64,000 nt of DNA from an uncultured Actinomycetes bacterium (GCA_963809325.1 CAWEIZ010000002.1:452793-516792); one strand, 5' to 3'; positions 424 to 60,620 are shown, numbered from the stretch's first letter. The notes: generated from the sequence alone by a model not told the origin. A program made the numbers and translations.

Positions 424-1193
424 TCAGGTCTGCACCGAGCGCCGGAACGCCTGCACCGCAAGCGGCAGCGTTACCGCGCCGACCGCCGCCGCCGCGAGGA
501 ACGCCTCCCCGATCGTCCCCCACTGCCAGCCCTCGAGCATCAGCGCCCGCATGCCGTCGACGAGGTAGCTCACCGGGTTCACCTTGTTCAGCGTCTGGAG
601 CCACGACGGCAGGAGGGCGTACGGGACGAAGGCGGTCGAGGCGAAGTAGAGCGGGAAGATGAGGACGTTCGGGCGCCGGTGATCTCGGCGTTCTTCGTCC
701 GCAGGGCGACGTTCAGCGAGATCCCCGACCACATCGCGCCGAAGAAGCCGCCGAGCAGCATCATGACGAGCAGGCCCGGGATCCCCGTCTCGAGCTTCGC
801 GCCGATCACGAGCGCCACGCAGGTGACGACGAGGACGTGCGTGGCCAGGCGCACGGCGTCGGTCGCGAGCAGGCCGGCGACGATCGAGAGCCGCGGGATC
901 GGCGCGACCCGCAGCTTGTCGAAGAAGCCGGAGTCGATGTCCTGCACCATCTGGAACCCCGCGCCGCCCGCACCGACGAGCACCGACAGCGCGACCTGCC
1001 CGGCGGCGAGAAACTCGATCGAGCTGCTCGACGAGGCGGTCTTGTACTGGCCGAAGTTCTGGAAGACCGCCGCGAAGAGGATCATCTGGAGGATCGGGAT
1101 CAGCATCGGGAAGGCGATCCGTCCGGGCACACGTGGGATCTCGCGCAGCGCGCGGCGGCAGAGGACGGCCGAGGCGACGACGCCCGCGGTCAC
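424..1193 (-). pseudogene. ABC-2 type transporter permease, one frameshift (or assembly indel)
   Basis: ORFs 588..1193 and 424..732 read as one permease (...LRTKNAEITG / PNVLIFPLYFASTAFVPYALLPSWLQ...NPVSYLVDGMR). The frame switches at a C/G run near 671-673. The start overlaps the ATPase stop at 1190-1193. Confidence 0.75.
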
Positions 1194-2161
1194 GCGGCCA
1201 CCCCGCTCTCGGCCCGGCCCTCGCCCTCGCGCGCCTCGATGGTCGCCCCGGTGTGGAGCAGGAAGACGTCGTCGAGGGTCGGCCGCGCGACCATCACCGT
1301 GCGCGGCCTGATCCCGGCGGCTCCCAGCCGCTCGACGACGGCGACGACCGCGCCCGCACCGTCGCTCGCCTCGATCGAGACGCTCTCGGGCTCCGGCGCG
1401 CGCAGCCGGCCGAGCGCCTCGAGCGCCGCCCGCGCCGCGACGACCTCGGACGAGTCGACCGCCACCGTCACCACGTCAGCCCCGATCCCCGCCTTGAGCT
1501 CGTTGGGTGTGCCCTCGGCGACGACGATCCCGCGGTCGACGATGGCGAGCCGCTCGCACAGGCGGTCGGCCTCCTCGAGGTAGTGCGTCGTCAGAAACAG
1601 CGAGACGCCCGACTCGCGCAGCCGGCCGAGCTCCGACCAGAGCGCCGCCCGGGAGGCGGGGTCGACGCCGGTCGTCGGCTCGTCGAGAAAGAGCAGCTTC
1701 GGGCGGTGGACGAGCCCGCACGCCAGGTCGATCCGGCGCCGCATGCCGCCCGAGTACGTGCGCACGAGCCGGTCGGCGGCGTCCTCGAGCTCGAACAGCT
1801 CGAGCAGCTCGTCCGCGCGGGCCCGGGTCTCGGCGCGGGAGAGCCCGTACAGGCGACCCATGAGCAGCAGGTGCTCGCGGCCGGTCGAGTACTTCGCCAG
1901 GCCCGCCTCCTGGAGGGCGAAGCCGATCGTGCGGCGCACGGCCGCCGGCTCGCGGGCGACGTCGTGTCCGGCGACCGTCGCCGTCCCCGACGTCGGCGAG
2001 AGGAGCGTGCCGAGCATGCGCATCGTCGTTGTCTTGCCCGCGCCGTTGGGCCCCAGAAGCCCGAACACCTCGCCCTCCGCGATCTCGAACGAGACGCCCC
2101 GCACCGCCTCGACACCGCCGGGGAACGTCTTGCGCAGATCGCGGCATTCCAGTATCGGCAC
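1190..2161 (-). CDS. ABC transporter ATP-binding protein (DrrA-like, partner of the ABC-2 permease)
   Basis: Walker A GPNGAGKTT, signature YSGGMRRR and Walker B LLFLDEPTTGVD are present. GTG 2161 sits just before the conserved N-terminus VPILECRDLRKTF. The rest of the 636-aa ORF is a GC artefact. Confidence 0.9.
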   Translation of the reverse strand: MPILECRDLRKTFPGGVEAVRGVSFEIAEGEVFGLLGPNGAGKTTTMRMLGTLLSPTSGTATVAGHDVAREPAAVRRTIGFALQEAGLAKYSTGREHLLLMGRLYGLSRAETRARADELLELFELEDAADRLVRTYSGGMRRRIDLACGLVHRPKLLFLDEPTTGVDPASRAALWSELGRLRESGVSLFLTTHYLEEADRLCERLAIVDRGIVVAEGTPNELKAGIGADVVTVAVDSSEVVAARAALEALGRLRAPEPESVSIEASDGAGAVVAVVERLGAAGIRPRTVMVARPTLDDVFLLHTGATIEAREGEGRAESGVAA

Positions 2162-7300: not shown

Positions 7301-9838
7301 GTGGCGTCCCCCAGCCGTCAACAGGCGCTGTTCGAGCTTGCCCGTGACCTCTCGTCGACGCTCGAGCTCGACGAGGTCGCCCGGGCATTCACGGCCCATG
7401 CTCCTGAGCTGACCGGCGGTGAGGTCCGGATCTGGCTCCTGCGCGACCGCCCACGGCGGCTGGTCCCGCTCAGCGAGCCCGTGGCCGAGCGGCCGCTCGA
7501 CGATGACGCCGCGGAGCTGGCGGTCATCCGCTCGCGCCGGCCGCTTCGGACTCCGGCCCTCTTCATCCTCCCGCTCACCGCATCCGACCGCGCGATCGGC
7601 GTCATCGAGGTCGACGGCGCGTCGACGGCCCAGCTCGCATCGGGCGGGATGCAGTACTGGCGCACGCTCGGCGAGATCGTCGGCGCAGCGGTCGAGAACG
7701 CGCGCCGCCACGAGAAGCTGATGGAGGCCGCGAGCCGCTTCCGGTCGCTCGTCGAGCAGATCCCGGTGGTGACGTACATCGATCGCGCCGGCACCGGCGA
7801 GCCGATCTACGTGAGCCCGCAGATCGACGCCGTCATCGGCGTGCCGGCCGCCGAGTGGCTGGCCAACCCCGACGCCTGGACGGCCAGGATCCACCCCGAC
7901 GACCGCGACGCGGCGGTCGCGGCGTACGGGCGGACGATCGAGCTCGGCGAGCCGTTCACGTTCGAGTACCGGGTGATCGACGTGTCGGGTCGGACGCGCT
8001 GGTTTCACGACGAGGCCGTCGCCGTGGCGACCGACGGCAACCGTGACGACGAGATCCACGGCGTGGTCTACGACATCACCGAGCGCAAGGAGGCCGAGCA
8101 GGCCATGCGGGCGTCGGAGCGAGCCCTCGGCGATGCCGAGCACCGCTACCGGACGCTCGTCGAGCAGCTGCCCCTCGCCATCTACATCGATGCGCTCGAC
8201 GAGGGCGGGACGTCGCTCTACAACAGCCCCCAGAACGACGTGATCACCGGCTACACGCATCCCGAGTGGGAGCAGGATCCCGACCTCTTCGCCAAGATCA
8301 TCCACGAGGACGACCGCCGCCGGGTGCTTGATGGCTTCGAGGCCGCCCGGATCGACAGCGCGCCGTTCGTGAGCGAGTACCGCATCGTGCGCCCCGACGG
8401 AACGATGGTGTGGGTGCACGACGAGTCGGTCGTCGTGCGCGATGCCGCCGGAGAGGCGCTCCACCGCCAGGGCTATCTCCTCGACATCACCCAGCGCAAG
8501 CTCGCGGAGGAGCGGCTCGGGCACCTCGCCTACCACGACTCGCTGACAGGCCTTCCGAACCGCGACCTGTTCTCGGAGCACCTGGAGGTCGCGCTGGCGC
8601 GGGCGGAGCCGACCGGTCACGGCGTCGCCGTGCTGTACGTCGACCTCGACGACTTCAAGCTCGTCAACGACTCGCTCGGCCACAGCGCCGGCGACGAGCT
8701 CCTGATCGAGGTGGCGCAGCGGCTCCTCGGCGCGGTGCGCTCGGGCGACATCGTCGCCCGCCAGAGCGGGGACGAGTTCCTGATCCTGGTCGCCGACCTC
8801 GACGTCTCTGCCGACGGCGACGGCGTCGCCATCGCCGATGTGGCGCGCAACATCGCCCAGAACCTGCGGACGGCGCTCGCCGCGCCGTTCGAGCTCGGTG
8901 GCACCGAGGTGTACTGCTCCGGCAGCGTCGGCATCAGCATCTATCCGGTCGACGCCGTCGACGCGGCCAGCCTGCTGAAGCACGCCGACGCCGCCATGTA
9001 CCGGGCCAAGGAGTCGGGCCGGGACGGCGCCCACCTGTACACGCGCGAGGGCGGCGACGCGATGGCGCGCCTCTCGATGGCCGGGCGGCTGCGCCGGGCC
9101 GCCGCGCGGGACGAGTTCGTGCTGCACTACCAGCCGCTGGTCGACCTCTCGACGGGAGCGGCGGTCGGCGTCGAGGCCCTCATCCGCTGGTTCGACGGCG
9201 ACCGGGGGATGATCATGCCCGGAGACTTCATCCCGCTCGCAGAGCGCACCGGCCTGATCGCGCCGATCTCGGAGTGGGTCGTCGAGGAGGCCTGCCGCCA
9301 GGGCCGAGCCTGGCGCGACGCCGGGCTCGACCTCTACGTCTCGGTGAACCTGCCGGCCGCCTTCTGGGAGCCGACCGCGATGCGGCACGTCCTCGACACG
9401 ATCGAGTCGTTCGGCCTCTCGCCCGACCGGATGATGATCGAGATCACCGAGTCGACCGCCGCTCGGGAGGGCTTTCGCGAGGCACCGATCCTCGCCGAGC
9501 TTCACGAGCGCGGCCTGCGCCTGGCCATCGACGACTTCGGCACGGGCCATTCGAGCCTCGAGCGCCTGAACCGGATGGCCGTGACGACGCTCAAGATCGA
9601 CCGCTCGTTCGTCGCGGGCGTGCCCGCCGATCGCAGCGCGTGCGTCCTCGTCGCGGCGATGCTCGGGCTCGCCGACGGGCTCGGCCTTCAGGCTTTGGCG
9701 GAGGGCATCGAGACCGAGGCCCAGCGCGCATTCCTGCTGGACCACGGCTGCCCGCTCGGACAGGGCTTCCTGTTCTCGCCGGCGGTCGCGCCAACGCAGG
9801 TCGAGCCGCTCGTGCGGCGGCTCCCGCGGGCGGCCTGA
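7301..9838 (+). CDS. GAF-PAS-PAS-GGDEF-EAL signalling protein (GGDEF site reads SGDEF)
   Basis: A GAF-like N-terminus and two PAS units are followed by a GGDEF domain ([10 protein letters not shown]) and an EAL domain ([25 protein letters not shown]). GTG 7301 is preferred because it has a GGGAAGGG RBS and does not overlap the previous ORF. GTG 7214 is the alternative. Confidence 0.85.
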
Positions 9839-9843
9839 GTCTC

Positions 9844-9893
9844 GACGAACCCCGTGGGGCCAGGCCCCGTACGGGGCCTGGCCCCGGTTGTTC
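9844..9893. repeat. REP-like palindromic element, copy A
   Basis: Sequence GACGAACCCCGTGGGGCCAGGCCCCGTACGGGGCCTGGCCCCGGTTGTTC. The core is a perfect 13-bp stem, GGGGCCAGGCCCC/GGGGCCTGGCCCC, around a GTAC loop. It starts 6 nt after the stop at 9838. Confidence 0.9.
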
Positions 9894-9954
9894 GCCGCGG
9901 CGAATGGGGACCAGGTATCGCATCGAAAGCGTGACAACTGGCCGGTTTAGCCTG

Positions 9955-10004
9955 GACGAACCCCGTGGGGCCAGGCCCCGTACGGGGCCTGGCCCCGGTT
10001 GTTC
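9955..10004. repeat. REP-like palindromic element, copy B
   Basis: Identical 50-nt copy of element A, 61 nt downstream. It ends 6 nt before the convergent kynU stop at 10010. Confidence 0.9.
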
Positions 10005-10009
10005 TGCGC

Positions 10010-11272
10010 CTACGTGACCCGAGACGGAGTGTCGGCCATCCGCTCGTGCTCGCCCGACTCGACGATGCCCGCGAGCCGGTCGATCGCGTCCCAGACGTCG
10101 ACGTAGCGCGTGTAGAGCGGCGCCAGCCCGAAGCGGATCGAGTCGGGCGCGCGGAAGTCGGGGATGACGTCCGCGCGCTCGACGAGCGCCCGGCAGATCC
10201 GCCACGCGTCTGGATGGCGTAGCGACACGTGCGCACCGCGGCGCTCGGCGGCGCGCGGAGTCCCGAGCGTGAAGCCGAGCTGCGCCAGGCGCTGGTCGTG
10301 GAGGTCGACGGCGAGGGTCGTGAGCGCCGCCGCCTTGGCCCGCACGCGGCCGATGCCCGCCTCGGCGAGCATGTCCGCACCCGCCTCGACGGCCGCCAGG
10401 GCGATGATCGGCGGCGTCCCGGCCAGGAACCTCCCGATCCCCTCGACCGGCCGGTACTCGGGCCCCATCGCGAACTGATCCTCCTGCGAGAACCAGCCCC
10501 AGATCGGCGAGCGCAGCTGCGCGCTGCAGCTCCGAGCGGACGTAGAGGAGCGCGGGCGAACCCGGGCCGGCGTTCAGGTACTTGTAGGTGCACCCGACGG
10601 CCAGGTCGGCGCCGACCGCGTCGAGGTCGACCTCGACGGCGCCGGCGGCATGGCACAGGTCCCACAGGACGAGCGCCCCCGCCGCGTGGCCGGCCGCCGT
10701 GATCTCGGCCATGCCGCGCCAGCGCGCCGGAGCGGTAGTTCACCGCCGAGAGCACGACCAGCGCCGCCCCGCCCGCGCACGCCTCCTCGATCTCGGCCGG
10801 CTGCGGGCCGGCGACGGGATCGGCGGCGAGCATGCGAAGCTCGCGGCCGGTCCGGGCGGCCAGGCCCTGGAGGACGTAGCGGTCGGTGGGGAAGTCGGAC
10901 GAGTCGGCGACGATCGCGCCCGGCCGGGCGTCGAGCGCCGCTCCGGCGAGCTTGTACAGGTTGACCGTCGTCGAGTCCGACACGATGACCTGCCCCGGCG
11001 CCGCGCCGAGCGCCGCCGCGCCGAGCCGGTCGCCGGCGGCCGTCGGGGCCTCGACCCAGTCGTTCCAGCCCGTCACGAGCCGGTCGCGCCCACTCGCCGA
11101 TCCGGCGCTCGAGCGCGGCCTGGGCGTCGTGCGCGAGCGGTCCGAGCGAGTTGCCGTCGACGTAGATCCTCGGCGCGTCTCCGAGCGCGAACCGGCCGCG
11201 GAACGCCGCGAGCGGGTCGGCCGTGTCGAGAGCCTCGGCGTCCGCCCGCGTGGTCAGTGCCGTTCGAGCCAC
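10010..11272 (-). pseudogene. kynU: kynureninase, three frameshifts
   Basis: Four minus-strand ORF pieces join into one kynureninase: DPLAAFRGRF...YVDGNSLGP...IGEW / TGWNDWVEAP...VNYRSGALA / [30 protein letters not shown]...[24 protein letters not shown] / [22 protein letters not shown]... The frame changes near 11086-11092, 10714-10718 and 10519-10523. Confidence 0.8.
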
Positions 11273-11973
11273 TCGACCACCGTAGCCCATGCGCGCGAGC
11301 CGGGCTCGAGGTGCTCGAAGTGGCCGTCCGCCTCGAGCTCCACGAGCTCGCATCCCGCCGCCGCGGCGAACCGGCGGCTCATGTCGACGGGCACGACGTC
11401 GTCGCGGCCGCCGTGGACGAGCAGCACCGGGACATCGAGCGGAAGCCGGCGAGCGGGCGAGGCCTCGCGGTAGCGGTCAGGGACGCGGGCAGGCGCGCCG
11501 CCCAGCAGCCGCTCGACCATGCCGCCGCAGACGCCCGCCGCGGCCGCGCGGTCGAGGTCCGAGACGGCCGCCTGGCCGACAGCGGCCGACAGCGGCACTC
11601 GCGCGTCGCTGCGCCCCGCCGCCCACAGCGCCAGGTGGCCGCCGGCCGAGTGTCCGACCGCGGTGACGCGCCCGAGATCGAGCGGCGCTTCGACGTCGGC
11701 GAGAAGGTCGATCGCGGCGGCCACATCGTCGAACGTCGCCGGCCAGCCGCCGCCCGCGCGAAGGCCGACGCGGCGGTACTCGACGTTCCAGGCCGCCCAT
11801 CCATGCGCGACGAGGTCGGCCGCGAGCGGGTCCATCAGATGGCGGTCGTAGCGGGCGCGCCAGCACCCACCGTGGATCAGGACTGCGACCGGATGCGGCC
11901 CCGCCCCGGCCGGCAGGAAGAGCTCGGCGACCTGGCTGCGGTGGCGGCCGTACCGGTGGAGCGAAGTGGTCAC
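11254..11973 (-). CDS. alpha/beta hydrolase, arylformamidase (kynurenine formamidase)-like
   Basis: HGGCW motif and GHSAGGH nucleophile elbow. The GTG 11973 start forms a GTGA overlap with the upstream gene. The formamidase role is inferred from the kynU neighbour. Confidence 0.7.
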   Translation of the reverse strand: MTTSLHRYGRHRSQVAELFLPAGAGPHPVAVLIHGGCWRARYDRHLMDPLAADLVAHGWAAWNVEYRRVGLRAGGGWPATFDDVAAAIDLLADVEAPLDLGRVTAVGHSAGGHLALWAAGRSDARVPLSAAVGQAAVSDLDRAAAAGVCGGMVERLLGGAPARVPDRYREASPARRLPLDVPVLLVHGGRDDVVPVDMSRRFAAAAGCELVELEADGHFEHLEPGSRAWATVVEWLERH

Positions 11974-44511: not shown

Positions 44512-45132
44512 ATGGTCCAGGAACGCACCCGGCTCACGCACGAGGATCGGCGCACAGCCATCCTCGACGCGGCCCGGCACGAGTTCGCGCGCAAGGGGTT
44601 CCGGGGCGCGGGCACGGCCGACATCGCGGCCCGGTGCGGCTGCTCCGAGCCGATGCTCTACAAGCACTTCGCCTCGAAGCAGGAGCTCTTCGCCGCCGTC
44701 CTCACCCACGCCGGCTCGCTCATGGGGCAGCGCGTCGACGCGCTCCTCGACGAGTCCGGCGACTCGGTGACGGCGGCGCTCGTCGAGGTCGCCGAGCTCG
44801 CGGCCACCGACGAGCTGATCGTCGAGGTGATGCGCCTGCGGATGCTGGCGGCGTCGCTCGTCGGCGAGCCGGCCGTCCGCGCCGCCCTGGACGAGAACAT
44901 GCGCTTCATGCGCGCTCGCATCGTCGCGATGCTCGCCCGGGCGCGCGACCGTGGCGAGGTGCGCTCCGACCTCGACCTGGAGCACGTCGCGTGGCTCTGG
45001 GTCGGCTTCACCCTCTCGTGCGGGTTCCGGCACGCCCTCGAGCCCGAGCGGGCCGTCGAGGACAGCCCCTTCGTCGCCCGCACGTTCGTGCAGATGCTCA
45101 GCACCGATCCCAACGCAGAGGAGGCGGAATGA
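44512..45132 (+). CDS. TetR family transcriptional regulator
   Basis: N-terminal TetR HTH (RRTAILDAARHEFARKGFRGAGTADIAARCGCSEPMLYKHFASK). ATGA overlap with the MFS gene. Confidence 0.9.
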   Translation: MVQERTRLTHEDRRTAILDAARHEFARKGFRGAGTADIAARCGCSEPMLYKHFASKQELFAAVLTHAGSLMGQRVDALLDESGDSVTAALVEVAELAATDELIVEVMRLRMLAASLVGEPAVRAALDENMRFMRARIVAMLARARDRGEVRSDLDLEHVAWLWVGFTLSCGFRHALEPERAVEDSPFVARTFVQMLSTDPNAEEAE

Positions 45133-50827: not shown

Positions 50828-52613
50828 GTGGGTGATCATCGACGTGAGACGCCAGACCCGTCGGGGCAGGGCGCCGCCGCGAGCATCGGCCACATGCCGC
50901 GCGTCGGCTCGGATTTCGCGTCGTACCGGATCCAGGGCGTGCTCGGTCGCGGCGGGATGAGCGTGGTGTTCCGCGCCGACAACATGCGCCTGGGGAACGA
51001 GGTCGCCCTCAAGGTCCTGAGCGCGGAGCTCTCGGAGAACGACGCGTTCCGGGAGCGGTTCGTGCGCGAGTCACGGCTCGCAGCCTCGATCAACCACCCG
51101 AACATCATCCCGATCTACGACGCGGGCGAGGAGGACGGCCTCCTCTACATCGCCATGCGCTTCGTCGCGGGCGCCGACCTGAAGACGCTCATCCGCCAGG
51201 AGGGCCCGCTGTCGCTGCGGCGATCCGCCGAGCTGATTTCGCAGGTCGCGCGCGGCCTCAGCGTCGCGCACCAGCGCGGGCTCATCCACCGCGACATCAA
51301 GCCTGCGAACATCCTCACCGAGCGGGCCGGGGGCGACGGCGAGACCGTCGACCACGCCTACCTCGCCGACTTCGGCCTCATGAAGCACCAGGTGTCCCGG
51401 TCGGGGCTGACCGACACGGGCCAGTTCCTCGGCACGGTCGACTACGTGGCGCCTGAGCAGGTGGAGGGGCGCCAGACCGACCATCGCGCCGACGTCTACT
51501 CGCTGGGATGCGTGCTCTACGAGTGCCTCACGGGCTCCGTGCCGTACCCGCGCGACAGCGACGTCGCGGTGCTCTTCGCGCACGTTCAGGACACGGTCCC
51601 GCGGATCACCGACCTGCGGCCCGATCTGACGCCGGCGATCGACGAGATCTGCGCCCGGGCGATGGCGAAGCGCCCCGAGCACCGCTACGCCACGGCGGGC
51701 GACCTCTCCCGCGACCTGTCGGAGCTCGCCGGTGCCTTCCGCTACTCGAGCGAGCGGCCGTCGCGTGTGACGACCGAGCCGACCATTCCGCCCACTCCAG
51801 CAACCGGCTACGGCGAGTCGCCCGACGTCGTCCGGGCTCGCGAGCCCGTCGCCCAGGAGCCGCCTTCCGGGCCGCCCGGCGATTCCGGGCGCGGCGGTGG
51901 GGTGCCTCCGAGGGCCCCTCGCGGCCGTCCGTCGACGGTCGTGATCGCGCTCGTCGTGGCCCTTGTGGCCGCGCTCGGCGTGATCGCGTTCCAGCTCACG
52001 AGCGGCAGCGACTCGGCGTCGAGCTCGGGCGGCCCGGGGACGACGGCGTCGCCGAGCGGGACGACCGGCGCCGCCGACCGGCGGCACCGGCACGACCGCG
52101 CCCACCGGCGGCCCGGTGGTGGCCGGCGATCTGCGACTGGCCATGCCGAAGAATCTGCTCGCCGACTGCACGAACGTCCCGCCGGTCGGCGCTGCGCTCG
52201 CGTCGCTCAGCTGCTCGGTGCCCTCGAACTCCGCGATCACGTACGACGTCTCGATGTACCCGGACACCGCCGCGGTGCAGGCTGTCTTCAAGACCCTGCT
52301 CGCGTCACAGGGGATCCAGACCAACACGAACGGCTGCACCAAGCGCAACTGGAACGGCGAGCGGCCCTGGTTCCATCCGACGGGCTCGCTCGGCGGGCAC
52401 GTCGCGTGCTATCTCGACGCGAACGACGACTCCGTGATCATGTGGACGCACATGAGCAAGAACGAGAAGGGCGCGCCGCCGCAGACCGACCACCGCGACA
52501 TCGTCGGGATCGCAAAGCAGCACACGCAGCTTCCGGGTGAGCTGCTCGCGTTCTGGAAGTTCTGGAGCGGTGCGAGCGGCACCGACAGCATCATCGGCAA
52601 GTTCTCGAGCTAG
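50828..52613 (+). pseudogene. transmembrane Ser/Thr protein kinase with novel Cys-containing ectodomain, one frameshift (or assembly indel)
   Basis: GTG 50828 follows GGAAGGAGG. The Hanks kinase motifs are GRGGMSVVF, VALKVL, HRDIKPANIL, DFG and APE, followed by a TM helix. After the linker the frame moves to ORF 52116..52613 (PAPPTGGTGTTAPTGGPVVAGDLRLAMPKNLLADC...). The shift lies within 52050-52090. Confidence 0.75.
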
Positions 52614-56885: not shown

Positions 56886-57734
56886 GTGCCCAGCCTGACC
56901 ACCAAGGACGGCCGCACCCTCGCGTGGCACGAGCGCGGCTCGGGCCCGCCGCTCCTCTGTCATCCGGGCGGGCCCGGATGCTCGTCGGCGTACTTCGGCG
57001 ACCTCCCCGAGCTGGCGACCGAGCGCACGCTGCTTCTGCTCGATCCGCGCGGCACGGGCGCGTCCGACCCGCCGGCCGACCCGTCGGCCTACGACCTCGA
57101 GGACTACGCCGACGACATCGAGGCCGTCCGCCGCCACCTCGGCATCGAGCGGCTCGATCTGCTGGGCCACTCCCACGGCGGGTTCGTGGCCATGCCATGG
57201 GCCGCCCGGCATGCGGAGCACGTGCGAAAGCTGGTGCTCGCCAGCACCGCTCCGCGATTCACCGACGAGATCCGGCAGGCCCGGAGGGACCGGGTCGCCT
57301 CGCACATGGGGCGGCCGTACTTCGCCGACGCCATGCAGGCGTTGCAGCAGCGCGAGGAGGGTCGCTACGCGAACGACGAGGAGCTGACCGACCTCTACCG
57401 GCGCGAGGGCGTGCTCTTCGCCCCGGTGGGCGTCGACCCCACGCCGGTGCTCGACGCGCTCGTGCGCGCAGGCGACAACTCCGATGCGCTTCGCCACTTC
57501 AACGAGGAGATCGCCGGCAGCATGGACCAGCGGCCGCTGCTGGCGCACGTGCCGGCGCCGACGCTCGTGATCACCGGATCCGAGGACGCGTTCGTCTCCG
57601 GGGCGCGCGAGATCGCCGAGGCGCTGCCTGACGCGACCCTCGTCATCCTGCCGGGCGTCGACCACTTCCCGTTCCTCGAGCCCGACCACGAGGCGGCCTG
57701 GTCGCGGGCGGTGCTCGACTTCCTGGGGGGCTAG
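56886..57734 (+). CDS. alpha/beta hydrolase (proline iminopeptidase-like)
   Basis: HPGGPG and GHSHGG nucleophile elbow. The 282-aa ORF has a GTG start. Confidence 0.85.
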   Translation: MPSLTTKDGRTLAWHERGSGPPLLCHPGGPGCSSAYFGDLPELATERTLLLLDPRGTGASDPPADPSAYDLEDYADDIEAVRRHLGIERLDLLGHSHGGFVAMPWAARHAEHVRKLVLASTAPRFTDEIRQARRDRVASHMGRPYFADAMQALQQREEGRYANDEELTDLYRREGVLFAPVGVDPTPVLDALVRAGDNSDALRHFNEEIAGSMDQRPLLAHVPAPTLVITGSEDAFVSGAREIAEALPDATLVILPGVDHFPFLEPDHEAAWSRAVLDFLGG

Positions 57735-57736
57735 GC

Positions 57737-57765
57737 GAACCACCGGGGCCAGCCCCACGGGGTCC
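57737..57765. repeat. REP-like element, collapsed copy F
   Basis: GAACCACCGGGGCCAGCCCCACGGGGTCC lies between the convergent stops at 57732-34 and 57770-72. Confidence 0.6.
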
Positions 57766-57769
57766 GGCG

Positions 57770-59311
57770 CTAGGCGGCCGCCGCGCCGACCACCCGGTCG
57801 CGGCCGGCGGTCTTGGCGCGGTAGAGCGCCGCGTCAGCCGTGCGGACGAGCTCGACCCGGTCGTCGGCGTCGGCAGGGAACACGGCCCAGCCGATCGAGG
57901 CCGAGAGCGAGTGGCCGGCGCCCGGCTCGATCGCGAGCGACCGGACCGCCTGGCGCGCGCGGTCGAGCAGGTCGGCGACGCCGTCGGGATCGGTCGTCTC
58001 GAGCAGCACCGCGAACTCCTCGCCGCCGAGGCGGTAGATCCGGTCGGAGCCGCGGAGCACCTGCCGGATCGCCTCCCCCGCCCGGCGCAGCACGGCGTCT
58101 CCCTCCGGGTGCCCGAACGAGTCGTTCACGTCCTTGAAGTGGTCGAGGTCGACCATCGCGAGCGTGAACCCGAGATCGCGCCGCTTCGACACCGCGACGC
58201 GCCGCCGGAGCTCCGACTCGAACGTGCGCCGGTTCGGAAGGCCGGTGAGGGCGTCGTGGCCGGCCGCGCGCTCGAGCTCCTCCTGGCGGAGCACCGTCCG
58301 CCAGAGCGCCGCGAGGTGGCCGAGCATGAGGTCGAGCGCGTGATGGTCGAGCTCGTCGCCGCGTCCCGCCGCGAAGCAGACCGACGCGTGCAGGCCCTCG
58401 CCCGCCGTGTCGACCGGGAGCGTGATCCGCGCCAGCCCGTGCGAGCCGTGCCGGGGCGGGGCGCCTTCGGCGATGCTCAGACAGGCGGCGCCGATGGCCT
58501 CGCGGGGCGCCATGTGCGCGAAGCCGATGAGCTGGCTGCGCGTCGTCGCCTCCTTCGCCCGGCTCGACCAGGCGAGGACCTGCTCGATCTGCCGGGCCCA
58601 GCGGCCGTGCCGGTCGTGGCGGGAGTCGGCGTCGACGGCGAGCCGCCAGGCCTTCTGGAGGAGCAGCGCGCCTCCGGCGAGGAGCACGCCCATGCCGATG
58701 AGGGTCGCCGCGAGCACCGCGATGTCCGAGAGCCGCGTGGCGTGGGCGGCGTCGGCGTCGGCCCGGGTCGCGACCGTGGTCAGCCGGTTCGCGCTCGCAG
58801 CGAGGCGACGCTCGAGGGCCGCGCCGCGCCGGTCGACGCCGGCGGGCGGGGGAGCGGTCGGACGATCCGCCGATGCCGTCGATGCCTCCCAGCGCTGAAT
58901 GGCGGACGCCAGCGCCTGTGCTTTGCCGACCGATGCCCCTGCGGCGCCCGCCGCGCGAACGGTGCGGGCGAACCGGGCGATGCCGCGCTTCGTCGCCGCC
59001 CGATCCGCGGTCAGGGCGTTCGCGTCGCGCGCGTCATGCGAGAGCTGCCAGGCGAGGCGATGGTTCATCTCCTGCTGAATCGAGCCGAGCAGCGCCGTCG
59101 CGGCGGCCTGGGCGTGGTCGCCGGCCGTCGCGCGATGGGATGCATCCGATCGGTAGATGCCCGTCGCCACGCTCGTGGCCACGATCGCCACGATGATGCC
59201 CGCGGTGGCAACGGCCCAGAGCAGGGCGAACCGCCGTACCTGATTGGCGATCCGGGGCTGCGCGGGTACGCGTGGCTGGTCGAGCTGTCGAACGGGGGAA
59301 TCCGACCGCAT
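57770..59311 (-). CDS. membrane-anchored diguanylate cyclase (GGDEF; GGEEF site)
   Basis: Two TM segments flank a helical sensor region, followed by a GGDEF domain (DALTGLPNRR, DHFKDVNDSFGH, RLGGEEFAVLL). Confidence 0.85.
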   Translation of the reverse strand: MRSDSPVRQLDQPRVPAQPRIANQVRRFALLWAVATAGIIVAIVATSVATGIYRSDASHRATAGDHAQAAATALLGSIQQEMNHRLAWQLSHDARDANALTADRAATKRGIARFARTVRAAGAAGASVGKAQALASAIQRWEASTASADRPTAPPPAGVDRRGAALERRLAASANRLTTVATRADADAAHATRLSDIAVLAATLIGMGVLLAGGALLLQKAWRLAVDADSRHDRHGRWARQIEQVLAWSSRAKEATTRSQLIGFAHMAPREAIGAACLSIAEGAPPRHGSHGLARITLPVDTAGEGLHASVCFAAGRGDELDHHALDLMLGHLAALWRTVLRQEELERAAGHDALTGLPNRRTFESELRRRVAVSKRRDLGFTLAMVDLDHFKDVNDSFGHPEGDAVLRRAGEAIRQVLRGSDRIYRLGGEEFAVLLETTDPDGVADLLDRARQAVRSLAIEPGAGHSLSASIGWAVFPADADDRVELVRTADAALYRAKTAGRDRVVGAAAA

Positions 59312-59374
59312 TCATCTCAGTGTTGCGGCGAAGGGGCAATACGGCATCACCCGGATTCGGGATCGCGAGGGCGA

Positions 59375-60620
59375 TCAGGGCGCGCGGCGGTCGTTCGCGA
59401 CGAACGCGGCGTGCGTGATCGGCATCTTCGCGGCGAAGAGCTCCTCGACCGCGACGGCGTAGCGGCGGATCTCGCGCTGGGCCGTCTCGGAGTTCCGGAG
59501 CGAGAGGAAGTTCATCAGGCTGCGCGCGTTCACCGTCCAGTAGAACTGGGTGTAGATCGCGACCGGGAGCACGTTGCGCGCGATCTCCTTGGCGACGCCG
59601 CGCTCGAGCAGGTCCTCGTAGGTGCGGTACGCCTCGTCGAAGACCGCCCGCTGGGCCTCGCGGGTGTGCTCGGCGAGCTCGGGGTCGACGGTCTCGAACG
59701 AGTAGGAGCCGGGCTTTCCGACCTGCGTTCGGACGTCCTCCGGCTCGGGCACGTAGAACTCCGGCTCGAGCTGCGAGTACCTCCCGGACCACTCATTGAA
59801 GAGTTGTGGACCACGACGCCGTTGGCGACGAAGTTGTGCCACGGCCCGTCGACGCTCAGATCGTACGTCTGCTGCACCCCGACGTATCGGATGCCGATGA
59901 CCTTGACCGGGTGGGCGACGAGCTTGGGTGCCGCGCCTTCCTGCGGTTGGTCACGCTCGAGGGCGACGACGCCGTTCGTGAGCAGCGCGCAGTCGCGGGT
60001 CATCGTCGCGGACTCACCCACGCCGACGAGCCCGACGGCATCGCGCATTGTCGACCACCCTTGATCCGTAAGCAGACGGTGAGTGGCCGTCATCGTGAGT
60101 CGCTTCCCGTCCTCGAGAGCGACCTCGTAGACAGGTTGAGGACCCTTGTCGACGATATCGGCGATCCGGCTGACCCCGAATGTGCCCGTGGTCTCGTTGA
60201 GCACGCGCAACCGCAGGCGTCGCACCTGCGCTGATCCAGCTCCTCACCTTCGACCACAGTGCCAGAGCTCGTCAATCGTCTTCCGAAGGCGCGGGAGGTC
60301 TGTCCGTTGACGTCGACGAACGTCACCTCCGTATCACCGGTCAGGCAGCCGATGCGGTGGCGGGCCCATTCGCGCATCACGAAGATGGGCAGCTTGATGT
60401 GGAAGCGGAAGGCGTTGTGCTCGAAGGGGCTTCCGTGGCGCTCGCGCATGAGGAACCGGATCAGGCCGGCCTCGCGGTCGGTCATCTCGTCGGAGCGCTG
60501 CGCGAACGACACGCGCGCGCCGTTCACGACCGAGAGGTCGTCCGCCATGCAGCCGTCGAGGCGGACGAACCCGTGGTCAAGAACGCGAATTTCGTCGGTC
60601 TCGTGCATCACGGCGCCCAT
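59375..60620 (-). pseudogene. thyX: flavin-dependent thymidylate synthase ThyX interrupted by a mini-intein; at least two frameshifts (or assembly indels)
   Basis: The N-extein reads ...ERHGSPFEHNAFRFHIKLPIFVMREWARHRIG and the C-extein reads FNEWSGRYSQLEPEFY...FYWTVNARSLMNFLSLR. Together they restore the ThyX motif RHR-x7-S. The frame breaks at 59801-02 and within 60205-60290. Confidence 0.85.
59803..60347 (-). mobile_element. mini-intein (about 181 aa, no homing-endonuclease domain evident) in the ThyX RHR motif
   Basis: Block A CLTGDTEV, block B TMTATHRLLTDQGW and blocks F/G VQQTYDLSVDGPWHNFVANGVVVHN. It is flanked by RHRIG and (S)FNEWSGRY. Confidence 0.8.

What the first reader, a model, noticed from the sequence alone, without database searches (positions are those of the whole stretch)
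59375..60620. thyX carries a mini-intein inside its catalytic RHR-x7-S motif, and the +1 Ser codon is one base short
**Intein.**
- The N-extein ends ...REWARHRIG and the intein starts CLTGDTEV.
- The intein ends ...NGVVVHN and the C-extein resumes (S)FNEWSGRY.
- Excision would restore the ThyX signature RHRIGSFNEWS.
- Blocks A, B, F and G are recognisable.
- At about 181 aa there is no room for a LAGLIDADG or HNH homing domain.

**Frame problems.**
- Between the terminal AAC (Asn) and TTC (Phe) only two bases (TC) remain, so the +1 nucleophile codon is frameshifted (59801-02).
- The intein N-region changes frame at least once within 60205-60290. It may change three times, because KTIDELW reads in a second frame.

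**Interpretation.** If these are real, the genome's thyX is dead and dTMP synthesis must come from elsewhere. If they are assembly errors, this is an intact intein in an essential active site. From memory, ThyX inteins are catalogued, but I cannot tell whether this insertion site or allele is known.
Basis: partly seen in the sequence, partly recalled or inferred. Interest (0 to 1): 0.65.

Follow-up and report, generated by a model that had tools for sequence, protein, structure and literature searches.

The report
Known ThyX mini-intein, frameshifts likely assembly errors
The thymidylate synthase gene thyX here carries a common, already known self-splicing intein in its active-site motif, and the five missing bases that break its reading frame are most likely errors of a long-read metagenome assembly, not a dead gene.

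Summary
thyX (minus strand, 60620-59375) is interrupted after ...REWARHRIG by a mini-intein (CLTGDTEV...NGVVVHN), followed by (S)FNEWSGRY.

As assembled, the gene lacks five single bases: four in the intein N-region (about 60293, 60259/58, 60252/51, 60238/37) and one in the Ser+1 codon (59801/00).

The intein is ordinary.
- Thousands of ThyX proteins carry an intein here.
- Streptomyces and Mycobacterium phage ThyX use the same site.
- A syntenic Gaiellales relative has the empty site RHRIGSFNEWS.
- Close relatives carry the same intein with HTH and HNH modules.

The frame breaks are most likely consensus errors.
- A 99.5% identical contig from another assembly has an intact 416-aa gene. It differs from the window's gene by two synonymous substitutions and seven one-base indels.
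- Restoring five bases gives an open frame with all splicing residues, and dN/dS is about 0.27 in the intein.
- The window has private one-base indels in three other genes: an ABC-2 permease, kynureninase (three) and a Ser/Thr kinase.
- Five sister assemblies each have their own private indels.
- Related genomes are Nanopore-only Flye/Medaka MAGs.

A real, very recent pseudogene is not excluded (about 8%). Interest is low.

The parts
59375..60620 (-). thyX (flavin-dependent thymidylate synthase) with intein. It is 1246 nt as assembled and 1251 nt (416 aa plus stop) in intact relatives.
   Evidence: The repaired protein hits TIGR02170 thyX at 188.5 bits (cut-off 87.9) and PF02511.
60348..60620 (-). 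N-extein, 91 codons, MGAVMHETDE...FVMREWARHRIG. It contains the RHR of the ThyX motif.
   Evidence: It is 100% identical at protein level to P0001, P0002, P0004 and L008.
59803..60347 (-). Mini-intein, 545 nt as assembled (549 nt, 183 aa, C92-N274 when repaired). It has no homing-endonuclease domain.
   Evidence: TIGR01445 residues 92-186, TIGR01443 residues 253-275; nearest solved structure is the Ssp DnaB mini-intein 1mi8.
60345..60347 (-). Block A Cys1 codon (TGC), the first nucleophile.
   Evidence: Read directly from the sequence. The column is invariant in alignments A1 and A3.
60079..60090 (-). Block B T-A-T-H (T179-H182 of the repaired protein).
   Evidence: T179 and H182 are invariant in A3.
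59803..59808 (-). Block G penultimate His and terminal Asn (CAC AAC).
   Evidence: H273 and N274 are invariant in A1 and A3.
59801..59802 (-). Truncated Ser+1 codon 'TC'. It reads TCA in L004 and L001 and TCG in L003. This is missing base 5.
60293..60295 (-). Missing base 1: a CCC run that is CCCC in L004. The frame shifts after ...NGQTS.
60237..60259 (-). Missing bases 2-4: A after 60259, G after 60252, T after 60238. Repaired, the stretch reads ...ELWHMWSEGEELGSAQV... It lies about 10-30 nt upstream of the point where full-length alleles carry an HTH module.
59375..59802 (-). C-extein (S)FNEWSGRYSQLEPEF...FVANDRRAP plus the TGA stop at 59375-59377.

Best explanation
**What it is.** This is a Gaiellales-type thyX gene carrying a class-1 mini-intein of 183 aa.
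- It sits in the RHR-x7-S active-site motif, between Gly91 and Ser (RHRIG|C...HN|SFNEWS).

**How it works (inferred from the conserved residues).**
- The ThyX precursor is translated whole.
- Cys1 makes the N-S acyl shift.
- The +1 Ser attacks the thioester.
- The terminal Asn cyclises, assisted by the penultimate His.
- An O-N shift rejoins RHRIG to SFNEWS and restores the active ThyX.

**Origin.** It is a shortened form of an HTH/HNH homing intein found at the same site in close relatives.

**The frame breaks.** The five missing bases are most likely consensus errors of a long-read (Nanopore-type, Flye-style) metagenome assembly.
- They are probably concentrated here because the intein is structurally and allelically polymorphic among co-occurring strains: present or absent, mini or full length, and with 2-3 times higher dS than the exteins.

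**Shown:** the anatomy, homology, empty site, an intact near-identical copy, and indel noise elsewhere.
**Inferred:** the sequencing technology of this window, the heterogeneity mechanism, and splicing competence.
For: **Intein identity**
- Thousands of ThyX homologues carry PF14890, best E = 4e-248 at 89% identity over the full length.
- The alignment shows the same junctions.
- HMM hits exceed the curated cut-offs.
- The syntenic relative L008 has the empty site REWARHRIGSFNEWSGRY. Its DNA alignment to the window breaks at 60349 and resumes at 59800.
- The same site is used in Streptomyces and in Mycobacterium phage Norm gp94.
- Full-length HTH+HNH versions of the same intein are 81-83% identical overall.

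**Frame breaks as artefacts**
- L004 (ENA ERZ25039478 contig_18067) is 99.53% identical over 16.2 kb and encodes an intact 416-aa ThyX-intein. Within the gene it differs from the window by two synonymous substitutions and seven one-base indels.
- L004 has its own compensated -1/+1 pair that destroys the invariant Phe148, where the window is correct.
- With five bases restored there is no stop. C1, TxxH, HN and S+1 are all present. dN/dS is 0.06-0.09 in the exteins and 0.26-0.28 in the intein.
- Window-private one-base indels also break an ABC-2 permease (672), kynureninase (10519, 10714, 11087) and a Ser/Thr kinase (about 52066). The stitched kynureninase matches TIGR01814 over positions 1-399 of 400.
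- Five sister assemblies at 98.2-99.8% identity each carry their own private one-base indels and differently fragmented genes.
- The kynureninase differences from the intact L090 copy are two-thirds synonymous (20 of 30). Eight of the ten window-private ones in the alignment are synonymous. This indicates a functional allele with errors on top, not decay.
- One sister contig ends within 2 nt of the intein/C-extein junction. That suggests an assembly-graph branch there.
- Related GTDB genomes are 'MFD' MAGs. [quoted passage not shown]
Against: - No reads are available, so the errors are inferred, not shown.
- The window's own assembly was not found in any collection. Its sequencing technology is inferred from near-identical sister contigs and related MAGs.
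- Five deletions in 545 nt is about 60 times the window's background. About 0.085 would be expected, and P is about 2e-6 for at least four. A local cause is needed, and the proposed cause (mixed alleles in the pile-up) is untested.
- Only two or three of the five deletions lie in homopolymer runs, and those runs are short.
- Multiple hits in one gene are also what a real pseudogene would show.
Confidence: 0.87

Rival explanations
1. The lesions are real. In this strain the intein has suffered five one-base deletions. The ThyX precursor cannot be translated or spliced, thyX is a very recent pseudogene, and dTMP comes from thyA or from thymidine salvage encoded elsewhere in the genome.
For: - The sequence as given is untranslatable in one frame.
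- The lesions are strongly clustered in one gene, as expected once a gene is already dead.
- Some other actinobacteria, such as mycobacteria, carry both thyA and thyX (general knowledge). Loss could therefore be tolerated.
Against: - A 99.5% identical contig has the intact gene. Only two synonymous substitutions accompany seven indels. That indel-to-substitution ratio is far from the rest of the 16 kb compared (52 substitutions against roughly ten indel events) and unlike what neutral decay would give.
- The exteins show no private non-synonymous change.
- The same kind of private one-base indels hits unrelated genes in this window and in each sister assembly.
- No thyA, tdk or folA lies in the window. 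This is uninformative for the rest of the genome.
Confidence: 0.08
2. The window is a chimeric consensus of two co-existing alleles. These could be the mini-intein and the HTH/HNH full-length intein, or intein-containing and intein-less thyX. The polishing step then produced deletions at the places where the alleles misalign. This is a specific sub-case of the artefact explanation.
For: - Deletions 2-4 lie 10-30 nt from the point where full-length alleles insert an HTH module.
- Deletion 5 lies exactly at the intein/C-extein junction.
- A sister contig ends at that junction.
- Intein-less alleles exist in close relatives.
- dS in the intein is 2-3 times dS in the exteins.
- The other multi-indel gene, kynureninase, also lies in a private diverged haplotype block.
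Against: - There is no evidence that such alleles co-occur in the sample the window came from.
- Deletion 1 is 65 nt from the module junction.
- There is no error at the N-extein/intein junction.
Confidence: 0.45
3. The frame changes are read through by programmed ribosomal frameshifting or transcriptional slippage, so that the gene is expressed as it stands.
For: None beyond the existence of the frame changes.
Against: - Five separate sites would be needed, four of them within 56 nt.
- No homopolymer longer than 3 nt lies at any of the five sites, so I saw no slippery run of the usual kind. No formal search for slippery motifs or downstream structures was made.
- Every relative, including the 99.5% identical one, encodes the protein in one frame.
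Confidence: 0.005

Closest known systems
Actinobacterial and mycobacteriophage ThyX inteins. Examples are Mycobacterium phage Norm gp94 and other cluster C1 Bixzunavirus ThyX (Kelley et al. 2016, PMC5050341) and Streptomyces ThyX inteins.
   Same: - Same host protein and same insertion point, immediately before the S[FY]NE of the RHR-x7-S motif.
- Cys1, penultimate His, terminal Asn and Ser+1 are shared.
- Blocks are conserved (...TYDL..GP.HNF.ANG.VVHN|S).
   Different: - Those inteins carry an HNH endonuclease module and are about 250-300 aa or more. This one is a 183-aa mini-intein.
- Overall identity to the phage protein is only about 34-40%.
Full-length HTH+HNH ThyX inteins of close Gaiellales/Thermoleophilia relatives (P0007, P0011, P0020, L011, L013; intein of about 410 aa).
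   Same: - Same site and the same intein lineage, with 81-83% identity over the shared parts for P0007 and P0011.
- The exteins are nearly identical.
   Different: The window's allele lacks two modules. One is an HTH module of about 50 aa after ...WSEGE..G.A. The other is an HTH+HNH module of about 175 aa after ...LLTNGV.
Ter ThyX intein of Trichodesmium erythraeum. Splicing was shown experimentally and it is used as a mini and split intein (PMC3620165). The Arthrospira platensis PCC 7345 ThyX intein (L064) is taken here as its cyanobacterial counterpart. That equivalence is my assumption. The Ter ThyX site itself was not checked.
   Same: - Homologous intein in ThyX, about 40% identity across the whole protein in alignment A3.
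- The F/G blocks are nearly identical (MTYDLEVDGPWHNFVANGIVVHN|S).
- Ser is the +1 residue.
   Different: In Arthrospira the intein sits 5-6 residues further downstream, before the second Ser of the motif (...SFDVQ|C...HN|SYRY). This is a neighbouring but distinct insertion site.
Ssp DnaB mini-intein (PDB 1mi8), the nearest solved structure by sequence.
   Same: Hint-fold mini-intein. It aligns over blocks B to G at E = 6.5e-9.
   Different: The host protein is different, the similarity is low, and no structure of a ThyX intein was found.

Membership tests
Intein (Hint domain, class 1) | Cys/Ser nucleophile as first intein residue (block A) | tested here: met
   TGC at 60347-60345. The column is invariant in A1 and A3.
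Intein (Hint domain, class 1) | Block B TxxH | tested here: met
   T179-A-T-H182 at 60090-60079. T and H are invariant in A3.
Intein (Hint domain, class 1) | Blocks F and G ending in His-Asn | tested here: met
   ...TYDLSVDGPWHNFVANGVVVHN, with CAC AAC at 59808-59803. TIGR01443 scores 28.2 bits against a cut-off of 15.6.
Intein (Hint domain, class 1) | Ser/Thr/Cys as first C-extein residue | tested here: inconclusive
   In the window the codon is truncated to TC (59802-59801). It reads TCA or TCG (Ser) in L004, L001 and L003.
Intein (Hint domain, class 1) | Precise in-frame insertion relative to an intein-less homologue (empty site) | tested here: met
   L008 and about 65 other relatives read RHR(I/V/M)GSFNEW without interruption. 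The L008 DNA alignment breaks at 60349 and resumes at 59800.
Intein (Hint domain, class 1) | One uninterrupted reading frame through extein-intein-extein | tested here: not met
   Five one-base deletions in the window as assembled. The feature is met in L004, L001, L002, L003 and L006. I attribute the failure to assembly error.
Intein (Hint domain, class 1) | Protein splicing activity | not testable with these tools
   Only the homologous Ter ThyX intein has been shown to splice (PMC3620165).
ThyX / flavin-dependent thymidylate synthase (TIGR02170, PF02511) | Profile match above the curated cut-off over both exteins | tested here: met
   TIGR02170 scores 188.5 bits (cut-off 87.9). PF02511 scores 166.4 bits (cut-off 24.8), in two stretches.
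ThyX / flavin-dependent thymidylate synthase (TIGR02170, PF02511) | RHR-x7-S motif restored after excision | tested here: met
   RHRIG plus SFNEWS gives RHRIGSFNEWS, identical to the intein-less L008.
Homing-endonuclease-containing (full-length) intein | HNH or LAGLIDADG endonuclease domain between blocks B and F | tested here: not met
   No such Pfam hit on the repaired protein. Relatives have PF01844 HNH plus HTH domains at the corresponding position.
Genuine pseudogene | Relaxed selection (dN/dS near 1, private non-synonymous changes or stops besides the indels) | tested here: not met
   dN/dS is 0.06-0.09 in the exteins and 0.26-0.28 in the intein. There are two synonymous differences from L004 and no stop once the five bases are restored.
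Genuine pseudogene | Same lesions in an independent assembly or in the reads | tested here: inconclusive
   - L004 lacks them.
- No JGI metagenome contig carries either form of this allele.
- The broken products are not on record.
- Reads are not available.

The most novel reading that the evidence does not exclude
The five deletions are real. One strain of this soil Gaiellales population has just lost thyX through decay of its active-site intein. It survives on thyA or thymidine salvage. This would be a natural snapshot of an intein killing its essential host gene.
Probability: 0.07. Interest if true: 0.3.

Novelty: already known. Interest (0 to 1): 0.1.

Why it matters
It matters little as biology.
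- ThyX inteins at this active-site position are widespread and already catalogued.
- The mini-intein is an endonuclease-less derivative of HTH/HNH inteins found in close relatives.

The practical value is as a caution.
- In long-read metagenome assemblies, mobile and polymorphic insertions such as inteins can attract clusters of one-base consensus errors.
- These errors mimic pseudogenes.
- 'Dead essential gene' calls there need read-level confirmation.

If the lesions were real, this would be a modestly interesting case of an essential gene lost through intein decay.

Tried and rejected
- **Looked for the window's own assembly.** I queried the broken products (60620-60090, 60225-59530, 59842-59375). 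None is on record. The GTDB species-representative scan did not contain the source genome either.
- **Scanned JGI metagenome contigs** for this intein allele with or without deletions 2 and 3. There were no matches, so there is no independent evidence either way.
This is uninformative for a 64-kb slice of a genome.
- **Rfam and tRNA scans** of the window found nothing.
- **A single 3-nt deletion plus an in-frame TGA** at 60237-60259 was considered instead of three one-base deletions. I rejected it because the alignments to L001, L003 and L004 place three separate one-base gaps with matching sequence between them.
- **The window as another version of ERZ25039478 contig_18067** was considered, because gene coordinates differ by exactly 160000 at 56886-59375. 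I rejected it as a simple identity. The offset is 156615 at window 6332 and the sequences differ by 0.5%. The coincidence remains unexplained.
- **A GC3 hidden-Markov frame census** flagged a frame change near 45128. It is an ordinary TetR/MFS gene boundary.
- **Partition error.** The first dN/dS run had the C-junction one codon off. It was redone with the same result.

Full report
**1. What the sequence shows**

On the minus strand an ORF starts at ATG 60620 (MGAVMHETDE...) and reads ...FVMREWARHRIG to 60348. It continues with CLTGDTEVTFVDVNGQTS.
- The main body of the insert (RRLRLRVLNETTGTFGVSRIADIVDKGPQPVYEVALEDGKRLTMTATHRLLTDQGW...QTYDLSVDGPWHNFVANGVVVHN) lies in a second frame.
- After CAC AAC (59808-59803) only 'TC' (59802-59801) precedes TTC AAT GAG TGG.
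- The rest of ThyX (FNEWSGRYSQLEPEF...FVANDRRAP, stop at 59375-59377) therefore lies in a third frame.

**2. Exact lesions**

MAFFT alignment with three intact homologous genes of 1251 nt (L001, L002, L003, about 91-92% identical DNA) gives five one-base gaps in the window and no other gap. The comparison with L004, which is 99.53% identical over 16.2 kb, places them as follows.
- One C of CCCC is missing (window CCC at 60295-60293).
- An A is missing after 60259.
- A G is missing after 60252.
- A T is missing after 60238.
- The A of the TCA Ser+1 codon is missing after 59801.

Restoring these five bases gives a 416-aa open frame reading ...NGQTSPRLRKTIDELWHMWSEGEELGSAQVRRLRLRVLNE.... There are four frame changes in the intein N-region, not one or three.

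**3. What it is**

The repaired protein matches the expected profiles.
- TIGR02170 thyX scores 188.5 bits against a cut-off of 87.9.
- PF02511 Thy1 matches in two stretches.
- TIGR01445 intein_Nterm covers residues 92-186.
- TIGR01443 intein_Cterm covers residues 253-275.
- PF14890 also matches.

The intein is C92-N274, 183 aa. It has Cys1, block B T179-A-T-H182, the F/G blocks, penultimate His, terminal Asn and Ser+1. No endonuclease domain is detected.

A search of 5.8 billion proteins scored 8000 candidates, and 7987 had E <= 0.001. All 120 best hits have the Thy1 plus Intein_splicing architecture.
- Some are mini forms of 400-430 aa. The best are P0001 (89%) and P0002 (88%), both 416 aa.
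- Others are forms of about 640 aa with HNH (PF01844) and HTH domains.

Alignment A3 shows that the long forms in close relatives (P0007, P0011, 81-83% identical overall) are the same intein with two extra modules.
- An HTH module follows ...WSEGE..G.A.
- An HTH+HNH module follows ...LLTNGV.

**4. Empty site and distribution**

In a scan of GTDB species representatives, relatives are Gaiellales or 'uncultured Actinomycetes' MAGs, many named MFD... with contig_N names.
- L008 has the same gene neighbourhood (SDR, thyX, GGDEF) and 90-93% identical DNA.
- L008 reads REWARHRIGSFNEWSGRY without interruption.
- Its DNA alignment to the window stops at 60349 and resumes at 59800.
- Of 79 loci, about 66 have the empty site and a handful carry mini or HNH inteins there.

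This sporadic distribution is typical of inteins.

**5. Comparison with known ThyX inteins**
- Streptomyces ThyX (L031) reads RHRVGW|CVAGDTE...VVVHN|SYNEESGRY.
- Mycobacterium phage Norm gp94 reads RHRSGF|CVAGDMRV...WVVHN|SYNEESGRY.
- Both use the same position as the window, and both have HNH modules.
- Kelley et al. list two ThyX-like thymidylate synthase inteins in cluster C1 phages (PMC5050341).
- The Arthrospira ThyX intein (L064) is clearly homologous. It sits 5-6 residues downstream (...SFDVQ|C...HN|SYRY).
- The cyanobacterial Ter ThyX intein has been shown to splice efficiently, also as a mini-intein (PMC3620165).

The element is therefore a member of a known, catalogued kind at a known site.

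**6. Are the frame breaks real?**

Evidence that they are assembly errors:

(a) L004 (ENA ERZ25039478 contig_18067, 245 kb) encodes the intact 416-aa protein.
- Within thyX it differs from the window by two synonymous substitutions (59812, 59762) against seven one-base indels.
- The other 15 kb compared carry 52 substitutions and roughly ten indel events. Most of these lie in or near intergenic DNA, and two are at one kinase hot spot.

(b) L004 is itself noisy in the intein.
- A -1/+1 pair at window 60185/60178 turns the conserved GTF into AHS.
- That removes Phe148, which is invariant in A1. Here the window is the correct one.

(c) After repair, dN/dS against L001 and L003 is 0.06-0.09 for the exteins and 0.26-0.28 for the intein.
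- dS in the intein is 2-3 times dS in the exteins.

(d) The window has other private one-base indels that break genes.
- An ABC-2 permease is broken at 672. The two pieces match PF01061 positions 5-160 and 167-211.
- Kynureninase is broken at 10519, 10714 and 11087. The stitched protein matches TIGR01814 over positions 1-399 of 400, at 251 bits against a cut-off of 246.
- A Ser/Thr kinase is broken at about 52066. It is intact in L001 and L005.

(e) Five further assemblies of the same population (L088-L092, 98.2-99.8% identical) each have their own private one-base indels.
- L092 has dozens.
- Different genes are fragmented in each: Lon protease, an S9 peptidase, PAS-GGDEF-EAL, an ABC transporter, a Cys/Met enzyme and kynureninase.
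- The other assemblies have those genes whole.

(f) The kynureninase region of the window is a private diverged haplotype block.
- It holds 21 of the 24 window-private substitutions found in 17 kb.
- Its differences from the intact L090 copy are mostly synonymous (20 against 10). This points to a functional allele with errors on top and not to decay.

- Two other MFD MAGs show frameshifted thyX genes, L019 and L084.

**7. Why the errors cluster here**

Five deletions in 545 nt is about 60 times the window's background of private frame-breaking indels. About 0.085 would be expected, and P is about 2e-6 for at least four. A local cause is needed. My inference is a mixed pile-up over a polymorphic element.
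- Deletion 5 is exactly at the intein/C-extein junction.
- A sister contig (L005, ERZ25039490 contig_91349) ends within 2 nt of that junction.
- Deletions 2-4 lie 10-30 nt from the point where full-length alleles carry the HTH module.
- Intein-less and full-length alleles exist in close relatives.

This mechanism is not shown, because no reads are available.

**8. What remains open**
- The window's own assembly was not found.
- No JGI contig carries this allele in either form.
- A real, very recent pseudogene cannot be excluded. I give it about 8%.
- thyA, tdk and folA are not in the window. This says nothing about the rest of the genome.

**9. Verdict**
- The intein interpretation is supported.
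- The pseudogene branch is unlikely.
- The element is already known in kind and in insertion site, and interest is low.

Noticed in passing
window 10010-11300 (minus strand): The kynureninase gene is split over four frames by three window-private one-base insertions (about 10519, 10714, 11087). The stitched protein matches TIGR01814 end to end. The gene is intact (425 aa) in three sister assemblies.
   Followed up: yes
window 424-1293 (minus strand): An ABC-2 transporter permease is broken by a window-private one-base deletion at about 672. It is intact (256 aa) in all five sister assemblies.
   Followed up: yes
window 50890-52613 (plus strand): A Ser/Thr protein kinase is frameshifted at about 52066 in a GC-rich stretch. 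L004 is frameshifted at the same spot in the other direction. L001 and L005 are intact.
   Followed up: yes
window 9694-10942: This is a private diverged haplotype block. It holds 21 of the 24 window-private substitutions found in the first 17 kb, and they are mostly synonymous. It looks like a recombined or strain-specific segment.
   Followed up: partly
window 9829-10009; remnant near 57747-57751: A perfect 30-nt palindrome GGGGCCAGGCCCCGTACGGGGCCTGGCCCC occurs twice, inside a 70-nt direct repeat between two convergent genes. A related hairpin lies downstream of the GGDEF gene in relative L001. It may be a REP-like element or a bidirectional terminator.
   Followed up: partly
L005 position 1 (ERZ25039490 contig_91349 end), equivalent to window about 59801: A sister contig terminates within 2 nt of the intein/C-extein junction. 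This is what would be expected if intein-containing and intein-less alleles branch in the assembly graph.
   Followed up: partly
L019 3001-4674 and L084 3001-3701: Two other MFD long-read MAGs have frameshifted thyX genes. One carries an HNH intein and one has no intein.
   Followed up: no
window 56886-59375 versus ERZ25039478 contig_18067: Gene coordinates differ by exactly 160000, although the sequences differ by 0.5% and the offset is 156615 at window 6332. This coincidence is unexplained.
   Followed up: partly
L064 2914-4332 (Arthrospira platensis PCC 7345): A homologous ThyX intein is inserted 5-6 residues downstream of the actinobacterial site, before the second Ser of the RHR-x7-S motif. 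One intein lineage therefore occupies two neighbouring sites.
   Followed up: partly
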